From contig CANHNJ010000007.1 in NCBI GenBank assembly GCA_947462105.1, positions 19,638 through 83,637 on the forward strand: a stretch of 64,000 nucleotides of DNA, read 5' to 3'. Positions 45,646 through 45,955 of this stretch are shown one piece after another. The stretch's first letter is position 1. Each line of letters begins with the position of its first letter. This stretch comes from Alphaproteobacteria bacterium (GTDB lineage: Bacteria > Pseudomonadota > Alphaproteobacteria > Micropepsales > Micropepsaceae). The translations under genes were made by a program, and so were the position numbers. The notes under the pieces are model-generated. The model was not told the DNA's origin. It made no database searches and saw only the letters and a list, made by a program, of their open reading frames with translations.

Positions 45646-45707
45646 GGAATATTTCAAACTCTTACGGCGCGCGCCGTGCTAGAAGCGTGACGGCAACAAC
45701 CATTTTG

Positions 45708-45723
45708 AAAGGAGGTGATCCAG
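45708..45723 (+). promoter_or_regulatory. Extended 16-nt Shine-Dalgarno sequence
   Basis: AAAGGAGGTGATCCAG is the exact reverse complement of the conserved 16S 3' end CTGGATCACCTCCTTT. Confidence 0.85.
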
Positions 45724-45785
45724 TGTCTCATTGTCATCTATTGGCCGCGAGCTGGATCCTCGTTTCGACCGGGGACCGCGACTGA
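45723..45785 (+). CDS. 20-aa sORF MSHCHLLAASWILVSTGDRD, rreB/rreR-like
   Basis: GTG start directly after the extended SD; followed by hairpins and a terminator. Confidence 0.55.
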   Translation: MSHCHLLAASWILVSTGDRD

Positions 45786-45829
45786 CCAGTTGACTGGTCT
45801 GGGCGCCTCGCGTTCCAGCGAAGACAATG

Positions 45830-45869
45830 GAAGGGCTGTTTCCCAGACGGGGAAACAGCCCTTCTTTGT
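45830..45869 (+). terminator. Rho-independent terminator
   Basis: GAAGGGCTGTTTCCC / GGGAAACAGCCCTTC 15-bp stem followed by TTTGT. Confidence 0.85.
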
Positions 45870-45955
45870 TGGTAGGCCCGGCCGGACTTGAACCGGCACA
45901 TCCTTGCGGACAACGGATTTTAAGTCCGGTGCGTCTACCATTCCGCCACGGGCCC
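45870..45955 (-). tRNA. trnL: tRNA-Leu (anticodon UAA), CCA encoded
   Basis: GGGCCCG acceptor, GGCGGAATGGTAGACGC D-arm, CT-TAA-AA loop, long variable arm, GGTTCAAGTCC T-arm, ...CCTA-CCA; C:U mismatch at the top of the anticodon stem. Confidence 0.95.

What the first reader, a model, noticed from the sequence alone, without database searches (positions are those of the whole stretch)
45690..45869. Small mRNA with a 16-nt perfect anti-16S Shine-Dalgarno, GTG start and self-sequestering structure (rreB/rreR-like)
Seen: AAAGGAGGTGATCCAG exactly complements the 16S 3' terminus and runs into a GTG opening a 20-codon ORF. The ORF contains CTGGATCCTCGTTTC (45752-45766), which can pair back onto the SD (7 bp, 2-nt bulge, 3 bp, mismatch, 4 bp). 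CATTGTC (45729-45735) can pair with GACAATG (45823-45829), and a 15-bp terminator closes the unit, convergent with tRNA-Leu. Known: rreB (Bradyrhizobiaceae) and rreR (Rhodobacter/Roseobacter) are sORF mRNAs with extended SDs, with weak GTG-initiated translation reported for rreB. SD sequestration is also typical of type I toxin mRNAs. Inference: a ribosome-binding regulatory RNA (30S sponge or sensor) or a type-I-toxin-like unit, with tRNA read-through as a possible antisense partner.
Basis: partly seen in the sequence, partly recalled or inferred. Interest (0 to 1): 0.72.

Follow-up and report, generated by a model that had tools for sequence, protein, structure and literature searches.

The report
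Small mRNA with giant ribosome-binding site
A stand-alone RNA of about 175 bases from an uncultured lake bacterium carries a 17-base perfect match to the tail of 16S ribosomal RNA directly in front of a 20-codon reading frame. It is a new, slightly divergent member of an already described family (rreB/rreR, Rfam CC2171) whose function is still unknown.

Summary
The complementarity is in fact 17 nt (45707-45723), as in rreB.

The unit (about 45691-45869, + strand) matches Rfam RF01867 "CC2171" over its full length. E is 9.5e-14, but the score of 67.6 bits is below the curated cut-off of 75. It has every sequence-level hallmark of the rre small mRNAs of Hahn et al. 2016.

- **Relatives:** exact-pattern scans hit their 120-locus limit in both genomes and metagenomes, including five distinct close relatives with the same 20-codon ORF.
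- **ORF:** frame and length are kept. The first frame-0 stop falls at codon 18-27 in 97% of 157 distinct sequences. Codon positions 1, 2 and 3 vary equally, so the peptide itself is weakly constrained.
- **Structure:** the CAUUGUC/GACAAUG helix is real and covaries. The two folds are near-isoenergetic.
- **Strain allele:** G45711C perfects the sequestering helix and weakens 16S pairing.
- **Rejected:** the type I toxin and tRNA-antisense ideas are not supported.

Verdict: a new member of a known, functionally unexplained kind.

The parts
45662..45685 (+). Promoter-like motif TTACGG-N10-GCTAGAAG. The putative transcription start is near 45691.
   Evidence: The same motif, TTAC(A/G)G-N10-GCTA(C/T/G)A(A/G)(G/A), lies at the same distance in five distinct close relatives. 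-35/-10-like boxes occur at equivalent positions across the family. It resembles the Caulobacter housekeeping consensus TTGACGS-N10-14-GCTANAWC (own knowledge). The E. coli-type promoter scan found nothing on the + strand. The transcription start was not mapped.
45691..45706 (+). Short A/C-rich 5' leader containing CAACAAC (45694-45700)
   Evidence: A CAACAAC-like motif precedes the SD in most relatives of all three subtypes. The Rfam match starts at 45697.
45707..45723 (+). 17-nt hyper-Shine-Dalgarno GAAAGGAGGTGATCCAG, complementary to the 16S rRNA 3' tail. Its last G is the first base of the start codon.
   Evidence: The predicted duplex with CUGGAUCACCUCCUUUCU is -32.8 kcal/mol, against -12.1 for a canonical GGAGG SD. 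The 17-nt region is defined as for rreB in PMC5711450.
45723..45785 (+). sORF: GTG start, 20 codons (MSHCHLLAASWILVSTGDRD), TGA stop
   Evidence: The same 20-codon frame occurs in five distinct relatives, with TAA or TGA stops. Family-wide, frame 0 is open to codon 18-27 in 97% of 157 distinct sequences, against 9-11% in the other frames.
45729..45751 (+). 5' strand of the long-range helix P1 (P1a 45729-45735, P1b 45746-45751, plus short intervening pairs)
   Evidence: It is the Rfam closing helix. In alignment A1, P1 is 83.4% paired against 28-55% when the partner is slid. There are 44 double-change cells against 16.8 +/- 3.4 in shuffles, 0 of 500 reaching the observed value. P1a is 98.3% paired in 76 metagenome sequences.
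45752..45766 (+). Internal mimic of the 16S tail (anti-SD box CUGGAUCCUCGUUUC), encoding (S)WILVS
   Evidence: It pairs with the SD in the minimum-free-energy fold, with a predicted duplex of -23.0 kcal/mol. In the family this helix is 84.8% paired against 18-56% when slid, and changes at columns 74 and 78 are wobble-compatible only. All synonymous sites are invariant in the five distinct close relatives, while flanking codons vary.
45770..45777 (+). SD-like segment CGGGGACC, which pairs with the anti-SD box in the alternative (open) fold (hairpin P2)
   Evidence: The equivalent GAGGUCC segment forms this hairpin in most relatives. In alignment A2 it is 83% paired against 30-56% when slid, but covariation does not exceed the shuffles.
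45778..45806 (+). Hairpin P3, which contains the stop codon UGA (45783-45785)
   Evidence: It is variable or absent in close relatives, while the stop keeps its place.
45807..45829 (+). 3' strand of P1 (P1b 45807-45812, P1a 45823-45829)
   Evidence: CUCGCGUUCCAGCGAAGACAAUGG is near-invariant in the close relatives.
45829..45869 (+). Intrinsic terminator: 16-pair G+C-rich hairpin plus T-run. It also scores as terminator-like on the minus strand, directly after the tRNA 3' end.
   Evidence: A terminator in the same position was found in nearly all relatives.
45870..45955 (-). Neighbouring convergent tRNA-Leu(UAA). This is context, not part of the unit.
   Evidence: It is adjacent in the window's clade (L146, L186) but not in the wider MSHC-type family.

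Best explanation
**Identity (confidence about 0.9).** This is an autonomous small gene of the rre/CC2171 family. It has its own promoter, a transcript of about 175 nt, a 17-nt hyper-SD that runs into a GTG, a 20-codon sORF and an intrinsic terminator.

**Mechanism (confidence about 0.45; inferred from anatomy plus published rreB data).** The RNA has two competing folds.
- *Closed fold.* The SD is paired with a copy of the 16S tail that lies inside the ORF (45752-45766).
- *Open fold.* A long-range helix P1 joins codons 3-10 to the region just before the terminator. The anti-SD box pairs with a downstream SD-like segment instead, which leaves the SD single-stranded.

Free 30S subunits capture the open form through a duplex of about -33 kcal/mol with the 16S tail. 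The duplex includes the spacer and the first base of the start codon, and P1 begins only 6 nt after that base. The start codon is therefore poorly accommodated and translation is weak.

When a ribosome does translate, it unzips P1 and P2 and stops at a fixed place. That remodels the RNA and exposes it to decay.

The conserved quantities are the RNA pairings and the frame and length of the ORF, not the peptide sequence. The act of translation, rather than the peptide, is therefore the likelier functional event. The physiological output is unknown.
For: **Identity**
- Full-length RF01867 match, E 9.5e-14.
- Architecture identical to rre genes.
- Promoter, ORF and terminator are conserved in five distinct close relatives.
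- The element is present in three lake metatranscriptome assemblies.
- Across strains that differ by about 1.4% in flanking DNA, the 361 nt around it carry 0-1 change.

**Two folds**
- Window: -80.3 kcal/mol (closed) against -79.6 (P1 enforced).
- Family of 124: the median difference is +2.2 kcal/mol, and 54 members lie within +/-3.
- P1 covaries.
- The anti-SD box is conserved, including wobble and synonymous positions.
- The family SD:anti-SD duplex has a median of -19.7 kcal/mol.
- RNAalifold on 76 metagenome sequences gives the SD:anti-SD helix as the consensus.
- The natural allele G45711C turns the single G.G mismatch of the closed helix into a C-G pair. The internal duplex goes from -23.0 to -26.2 kcal/mol, and the 16S duplex from -32.8 to -26.2.

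**ORF kept, peptide not**
- The TGG of the box is in frame in 52 of 55 genome loci and in 110 of 120 metagenome loci. In-frame spacings run from 27 to 48 nt.
- Stops are frame-specific.
- Entropy of codon position 1 is roughly equal to positions 2 and 3 in six length groups.
- In the close relatives, almost all ORF changes are non-synonymous and fall in unpaired segments.

Against: - No experiment exists for this RNA. The transcript ends are unmapped, and the metatranscriptome contigs are shallow, unstranded and could include DNA.
- The organism's own 16S gene is not in the window.
- The closed helix cannot show covariation, because the SD is fixed. Part of the anti-SD box (UGG) may be conserved as a Trp codon.
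- P2 covariation does not exceed shuffles. P1b and P2 registers differ between subgroups.
- Energies are nearest-neighbour predictions without pseudoknots.
- The relatives were found with exact-match patterns, so SD invariance among them is by construction.
- Overproduction of rreB RNA gave no phenotype, so the output of the mechanism is unknown.
Confidence: 0.6

Rival explanations
1. It is an ordinary small-protein gene. The 20-aa peptide (MSHC...W...) is the functional product, and the hyper-SD, GTG start and RNA structure only keep its synthesis low or conditional.
For: - ORF frame and length are strongly conserved.
- MSHC and Trp are near-invariant.
- Hahn et al. regard the Rre peptides as conserved small proteins.
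Against: - There is no codon periodicity in substitutions: positions 1, 2 and 3 are about equally variable.
- The conserved residues coincide exactly with RNA helices (P1a, anti-SD box).
- P1a changes are compensated at the RNA level while altering the peptide, for example CATAGTT/GACTATG in L106.
- Unpaired codons vary non-synonymously among close relatives.
- RreB, RreR and MSHC-type peptides share no similarity, although the RNAs share the SD design.
- There is no Pfam or NCBIfam match.
Confidence: 0.2
2. It is a purely non-coding, trans-acting sRNA, as Rfam labels CC2171. It would use its C-rich anti-SD-like box to pair with ribosome-binding sites of target mRNAs, and the sORF would be incidental.
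For: - Rfam files the family as Gene; sRNA.
- In many relatives a CCUC(C) motif sits in the loop of hairpin P2, as in seed regions of anti-SD sRNAs.
Against: - The frame-0-specific ORF has a stop at a fixed distance in 97% of 157 distinct sequences.
- Indels occur in multiples of three.
- rreB is translated weakly, and its stability depends on its start codon.
- In the window itself the CCUC lies in a stem, not a loop.
Confidence: 0.1
3. It is a type I toxin-antitoxin-like unit. The SD-sequestered mRNA would encode a toxic peptide, and read-through from the convergent tRNA-Leu gene would supply the antisense RNA.
For: - SD sequestration and a small ORF are present.
- The shared hairpin is terminator-like on both strands.
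- One RNA-library contig spans 45713-45944.
- tRNA-Leu(UAA) is adjacent in L146 and L186 as well as the window, three of the six distinct members of the clade.
Against: - The longest hydrophobic run is 9 residues (LLAASWILV).
- Family peptides are rich in Pro, Arg and Ser.
- 51 of 56 MSHC-type loci have no tRNA within the 8-kb locus, and none has one adjacent.
- A construct expected to overproduce RreB gave no growth defect.
- The contig has no strand information and may be DNA.
Confidence: 0.03
4. It is a chance match, a fragment of an antisense 16S gene, or an assembly or primer artefact.
For: AAGGAGGTGATCCAG is also the first 15 bases of the universal 16S reverse primer and of the antisense strand of the 16S 3' end (own knowledge).
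Against: - The sequence diverges from antisense 16S right after CCAG (TG instead of CC).
- The same locus is assembled independently in many shotgun metagenomes.
- There are at least 120 loci in genomes, against about 17 expected by chance for the 18-mer (own arithmetic).
- The flanking structure is conserved.
Confidence: 0.01

Closest known systems
rreB of Bradyrhizobiaceae (Hahn et al. 2016, PMC5711450)
   Same: - A 17-nt perfect complement to the 16S tail that ends in the G of a GTG start.
- Ser as codon 2.
- An A/C-rich CAAC leader.
- A small stand-alone transcript with a terminator.
- 16S-tail-like boxes inside the ORF.
- SD partly buried in a hairpin.

Sources.
   Different: - The peptide is unrelated (14 aa, MSFTKRCHLAGIAR type, against 20 aa, MSHC...W).
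- rreB does not score in RF01867 at the gathering threshold.
- rreB lies next to tRNA-Gly.
- Only rreB has experimental data.
rreR of Rhodobacterales (same paper)
   Same: The same SD + GTG design and small-ORF transcript.
   Different: It has an 18-codon ORF of the MSR(V/K)(I/V)LERGVGT type, no similarity after codon 2, and no RF01867 hit.
Caulobacter sRNA CC2171, Rfam RF01867
   Same: - Homologous over the whole 159-position model.
- Identical 30-nt core GAAAGGAGGUGAUCCAGUGUCUCAUUGUC.
- The same closing helix and terminator.
- Expression of family members was shown by Northern blot in M. extorquens.
   Different: - The window scores 67.6 bits, below the cut-off of 75.
- It lacks the roughly 12-nt hairpin between P1b and the anti-SD box.
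- It has the shortest ORF among the 57 MSHC-type genome loci.
- Rfam treats the family as non-coding. Neither the M. extorquens preprint nor Hahn et al. links CC2171 to rre.
Type I toxin mRNAs with sequestered SD (hok, tisB type; own knowledge)
   Same: A small ORF whose SD is occluded by a complementary segment within the mRNA, with alternative long-range 5'-3' pairing.
   Different: There is no hydrophobic toxin, no conserved antisense RNA, and an SD far longer than any needed for translation.

Membership tests
rre small mRNAs (Hahn et al. 2016) | At least 16-17 nt of contiguous complementarity to the alphaproteobacterial 16S 3' end, spanning the canonical SD | tested here: met
   GAAAGGAGGTGATCCAG at 45707-45723. 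The predicted duplex is 17 bp, -32.8 kcal/mol.
rre small mRNAs (Hahn et al. 2016) | Complementarity to the organism's own 16S rRNA 3' end | not testable with these tools
   The window has no rRNA gene. The organism is an uncultured lake bacterium known only from metagenome contigs and a MAG.
rre small mRNAs (Hahn et al. 2016) | The last base of the complementary region is the first base of a GTG start codon of a short ORF | tested here: met
   GTG at 45723-45725, 20 codons.
rre small mRNAs (Hahn et al. 2016) | The sORF is conserved within the clade | tested here: met
   Five distinct relatives have the same 20-codon frame. Frame and length are conserved family-wide. The peptide sequence itself is weakly constrained.
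rre small mRNAs (Hahn et al. 2016) | Independent small transcript (about 165 nt) with its own promoter and terminator | tested here: inconclusive
   There is a conserved promoter-like motif and a terminator. The element is covered by contigs of three metatranscriptomes, but these lack strand and end information.
rre small mRNAs (Hahn et al. 2016) | Strong binding to 30S subunits, weak translation, start-codon-dependent turnover | not testable with these tools
   These are experimental properties, shown only for rreB.
Rfam RF01867 CC2171 | Covariance-model score at or above the curated gathering score (75 bits) | tested here: not met
   The score is 67.6 bits, E 9.5e-14, model positions 1-159 of 159, with no hit at the gathering threshold. 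I therefore file it as a divergent homologue that Rfam's own threshold would not annotate. L100, L028 and L055 behave the same way.
Rfam RF01867 CC2171 | Closing helix CAUUGUC/GACAAUG and a 3' terminator hairpin around a variable core | tested here: met
   Seven Watson-Crick pairs, 45729-35 with 45823-29, and the terminator at 45829-65. The helix covaries in the family.
Type I toxin-antitoxin | Small hydrophobic, membrane-active toxin peptide | tested here: not met
   In MSHCHLLAASWILVSTGDRD the longest hydrophobic run is 9 aa. Family peptides are polar and Pro/Arg-rich.
Type I toxin-antitoxin | Conserved antisense RNA partner overlapping the toxin mRNA | tested here: not met
   The only candidate is read-through of the convergent tRNA-Leu. 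tRNA adjacency is absent from the wider MSHC-type family and present only in part of the window's clade.

The most novel reading that the evidence does not exclude
The rre/CC2171 RNAs would be bistable sensors of free 30S subunits. An intramolecular copy of the 16S tail competes with the real tail for a 17-nt SD. Capture by a 30S subunit, followed by occasional translation of a frame-conserved but sequence-free ORF, would set the RNA's lifetime and hence an unknown downstream output.

The design would not be confined to Alphaproteobacteria. Units with the same architecture and the same 18-mer, a 9-26-codon ORF and a terminator occur in Burkholderiales and Planctomycetota MAGs. That would imply either an old or a repeatedly invented ribosome-sensing riboregulator.
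Probability: 0.15. Interest if true: 0.8.

Novelty: new member of a known kind. Interest (0 to 1): 0.42.

Why it matters
The family is one of the strangest translation-initiation signals known: an SD three times the normal length, conserved across orders. It still has no function ten years after its description.

This locus adds no new kind, but the comparative work around it sharpens the question in five ways.
1. It ties the Rfam "non-coding sRNA" CC2171 to the rre small mRNAs. None of the papers read here makes that link.
2. It shows that selection keeps the ORF's frame and end but not the peptide.
3. It shows two mutually exclusive, near-isoenergetic folds built around an internal mimic of the 16S tail.
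4. It supplies a natural allele that shifts the balance between the folds.
5. It points to analogous units in other phyla.

Each point is directly testable in culturable hosts (Caulobacter, Methylobacterium, Brevundimonas).

Tried and rejected
- **RNAalifold on A1.** On the 54-sequence MAFFT alignment it returned almost nothing, because the variable core is misaligned. I tested named helices instead.
- **P2 covariation.** In a 20-sequence subset it does not exceed shuffles.
- **P1b and P2 in the metagenome set.** Mapping them by window coordinates onto a 76-sequence metagenome alignment gave only 54-57% pairing, because the registers differ between subgroups. I make no claim from that.
- **Promoter scan.** The E. 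coli-type scan found no + strand promoter. The promoter call rests on conservation in relatives.
- **Peptide families.** The peptides have no Pfam or NCBIfam family.
- **tRNA adjacency.** Tested as a family trait and rejected.
- **Literature.** Landt et al. 2008, the original CC2171 paper, is not held. Searches found no functional follow-up of rre.
- **Taxonomy and 16S.** The organism's taxon and its 16S could not be obtained.
- **Antisense 16S fragment or primer artefact.** Rejected, because the sequence diverges immediately after CCAG and the locus recurs in independent assemblies.
- **Caveat on the scans.** Counts are therefore lower bounds, and SD invariance among the hits is by construction.

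Full report
**1. Observation**

The region reads ...caacaaccattttGAAAGGAGGTGATCCAGTGTCTCATTGTCATC....
- The 16-mer AAAGGAGGTGATCCAG is at 45708-45723 and is unique in the window. By my own arithmetic an exact 16-mer is expected about 3e-5 times in 128 kb.
- G45707 extends the complementarity to 17 nt (GAAAGGAGGUGAUCCAG against CUGGAUCACCUCCUUUC). This is the same "17c region" described for rreB, whose last base is the G of the GTG.
- GTG at 45723 opens 20 codons, VSHCHLLAASWILVSTGDRD*, ending with TGA at 45783-85.
- CTGGATCCTCGTTTC is at 45752-45766 and is unique.
- CATTGTC (45729-35) and GACAATG (45823-29) are present.
- A 16-pair terminator lies at 45829-65.
- A convergent tRNA-Leu(UAA) lies at 45870-45955.
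- The 180-nt stretch folds to -80.3 kcal/mol, z = -4.4, with the SD paired to the internal box.

**2. What it is**

At Rfam's gathering thresholds only the tRNA is found. A permissive scan gives a full-length match (model positions 1-159 of 159) to RF01867, "Caulobacter sRNA CC2171". The score is 67.6 bits against a cut-off of 75, with E 9.5e-14.

Hahn et al. 2016 (PMC5711450) described rreB. It is a 165-nt mRNA with a 17-nt SD, a GTG start and a 14-codon ORF. It co-sediments with 30S and is translated weakly, and it becomes more stable when its start codon is replaced by a stop. Its function is unknown. They reported analogous genes in Caulobacterales, Rhizobiales, Rhodobacterales (rreR) and Rhodospirillales.

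Hahn et al. do not mention CC2171 or Rfam. The M. extorquens preprint that validated CC2171 by Northern blot mentions neither rre nor the SD. The two strands of literature appear unconnected.

**3. Relatives**

About 17 are expected by chance for an 18-mer in 596 Gb (my arithmetic). Three alphaproteobacterial subtypes appear:
- the MSHC type (GTGTCTCATTGTC...; 57 loci) in Caulobacteraceae, Methylobacterium, Bosea, Xanthobacteraceae, Acetobacteraceae, Rhizomicrobium and others;
- the Bradyrhizobium rreB type;
- the Rhodobacterales rreR type.

At Rfam's gathering score, RF01867 recognises Methylobacterium, Brevundimonas, Caulobacteraceae, Bosea and Falsiroseomonas members. It does not recognise rreB or rreR, nor several MSHC-type loci. 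The window belongs to that sub-threshold fringe.

It recovered the window's own locus (L207) and five distinct close relatives with the same 20-codon ORF, MSHCH[LR][LVTM]AASWILVS[TS]G...

*Source organism.* It is an uncultured lake bacterium. The flanking aldolase and the whole locus recur in JGI and ENA lake metagenomes and in one MAG. No gene is called in the intergenic region.

**4. Coding or structure?**

*The ORF is maintained.*
- The TGG inside the anti-SD box is in frame with the GTG in 52 of 55 genome loci, at spacings of 30-48 nt that are all multiples of three.
- Stop codons are TGA (29), TAA (14) and TAG (14).
- In the metagenome set, 110 of 120 are in frame.
- Across 157 distinct sequences, the first frame-0 stop lies at codon 18-27 in 97%. 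The figure is 9% and 11% in the other frames, which often close earlier or not at all.

*The peptide is not under ordinary purifying selection.*
- Entropy at codon positions 1, 2 and 3 is about equal in six length groups, for example 1.07/1.16/1.31 and 0.90/1.03/0.95.
- Among the five distinct close relatives, nearly all ORF substitutions are non-synonymous and fall where the RNA is unpaired (codons 6-7 and 16-20).
- All synonymous sites of ATC CTC GTT TCG, the anti-SD box, are invariant.
- The conserved residues (S-H-C and W) coincide with RNA helices.
- No Pfam or NCBIfam model matches.

**5. RNA structure**

*Helix P1.* On the 54-sequence alignment A1, the long-range helix P1 is 83.4% paired, against 28-55% when the 3' partner is slid. 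P1 consists of P1a (45729-35 with 45823-29) and P1b (window 45746-51 with 45807-12). Ten of its 15 pairs show double changes. There are 44 double-change cells against 16.8 +/- 3.4 in shuffles, with 0 of 500 shuffles reaching the observed value. P1a is 98.3% paired in 76 metagenome sequences.

*SD:anti-SD helix.* It is 84.8% paired against 18-56% when slid. Its variable positions change only to wobble-compatible bases: column 78 is A or G, and column 74 is C or U, with no unpaired cell. The SD is also fixed by my search patterns.

*Hairpin P2.* The box forms an alternative hairpin (P2) with a downstream SD-like segment, GAGGUCC in most relatives and CGGGGACC in the window. Its pairing potential is conserved (83% against 30-56%), but covariation does not exceed shuffles.

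*Two exclusive folds.* The SD helix (45705-23 with 45752-68) and P1 (45729-51 with 45807-29) cross each other. With only 5 nt between them, a pseudoknot looks unlikely (inference), so they are alternative folds.
- Window: closed -80.3 against P1-enforced -79.6 kcal/mol, and -74.4 with the SD and start held single-stranded.
- In 124 family members, the median difference (closed minus open) is +2.2 kcal/mol. 54 lie within +/-3, and 36 favour the closed fold.
- The window's clade slightly favours the closed fold.
- The ensemble calculations and the alifold consensus agree with this split.

**6. A natural allele**

Strains L121 and L124 are about 97.6% identical to the window over 5 kb. They carry G45711C as their only difference in the 361 nt around the sRNA and tRNA. 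A third equally divergent strain, L123, has none. The allele also appears in an RNA run and one other run.

G45711 is the single G.G mismatch of the closed helix. With C, GAAACGAGG pairs perfectly with CCUCGUUUC. The internal duplex goes from -23.0 to -26.2 kcal/mol, while the 16S duplex drops from -32.8 to -26.2. This is what a competition between the two partners would permit. It may equally be a mildly deleterious polymorphism.

**7. Expression and context**

Contigs from three lake metatranscriptomes cover the element. They are shallow and unstranded. Part of the depth over 45707-45737 comes from other species' homologues, which share the 30-nt core. That at least shows such RNAs are present in RNA libraries.

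A promoter-like TTACGG-N10-GCTAGAAG (45662-85) is conserved in the close relatives and resembles the family-wide upstream boxes.

The neighbouring genes are catabolic (HpcH/HpaI aldolase, FAD monooxygenase, cupins) and unrelated to translation.

tRNA-Leu(UAA) is convergent and adjacent in L146 and L186 as well as the window, three of the six distinct members of the window's clade. No tRNA is adjacent in the 56 other MSHC-type loci examined. The rreB-type loci sit next to tRNA-Gly, as published.

**8. Mechanism (inferred)**

The open fold presents a single-stranded SD next to a stable helix that begins 6 nt after the start of the start codon. A 30S subunit can dock by a duplex of about -33 kcal/mol, but it cannot easily place the start codon. 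This matches the strong 30S binding and weak translation measured for rreB.

The closed fold hides the SD behind a mimic of the 16S tail.

Occasional translation must unzip P1 and P2 and ends at a fixed stop. This fits the start-codon-dependent instability of rreB.

The output remains unknown. A plain 30S sponge is unlikely, because overproduction had no growth effect and ribosomes are in vast excess.

**9. Verdict**

This is a new, somewhat divergent member of a known but unexplained family. The toxin and tRNA-antisense ideas do not.

Noticed in passing
L029, L039, L116 (Burkholderiales MAGs); L014, L045, L115, L027, L030, L033, L104 (Planctomycetota MAGs); L044, L089, L091: Units with the same 18-mer SD + GTG occur outside Alphaproteobacteria. 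Their downstream sequences are unrelated to the alphaproteobacterial types. Each has a 9-26-codon ORF and an intrinsic terminator about 150-190 nt downstream. The Burkholderiales ones carry an in-frame GGAUCA box and a TGCTACACT promoter-like motif. Hahn et al. reported alphaproteobacteria only. None of the four loci tested hits Rfam at the gathering threshold. MAG taxonomy labels may be wrong.
   Followed up: partly
window 45711 (also L121, L124, runs X26 and X31): Strain polymorphism G>C inside the otherwise hyper-conserved SD. It falls at the one mismatched position of the SD:anti-SD helix.
   Followed up: yes
Rfam RF01867 versus PMC5711450: The Rfam family CC2171, labelled a non-coding sRNA, is the MSHC-type branch of the rre small mRNAs and contains a frame-conserved 19-27-codon ORF. 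Neither paper read here makes the link.
   Followed up: yes
L052, about 100-250 nt after the SD: One family member carries a large insertion between the ORF and the 3' strand of P1. The insertion includes a perfect 14-bp palindromic hairpin (TGGATCCCAAAAGT...ACTTTTGGGATCCA). The closing GACAATGG and the terminator are intact further downstream.
   Followed up: no
window 45829-45869 with 45870-45955; L146, L186: The terminator hairpin abuts the encoded CCA end of the convergent tRNA-Leu(UAA) and scores as terminator-like on both strands. It is probably a shared bidirectional terminator. The arrangement recurs in L146 and L186, three of the six distinct members of the clade counting the window.
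   Followed up: partly
L101 (labelled Hydrogenophaga), L108 (labelled Parcubacteria), L010 (labelled Cytophagales): These MAGs carry typical alphaproteobacterial MSHC-type or rreR-type units. The contigs are probably mis-binned.
   Followed up: no
many MSHC-type relatives, hairpin P2 loop (e.g. L026, L093, L110): A conserved CCUC(C) motif sits in the loop of hairpin P2 in the open fold, like the seed of an anti-SD sRNA. It could act in trans on other mRNAs' ribosome-binding sites. In the window the motif is in the stem.
   Followed up: no
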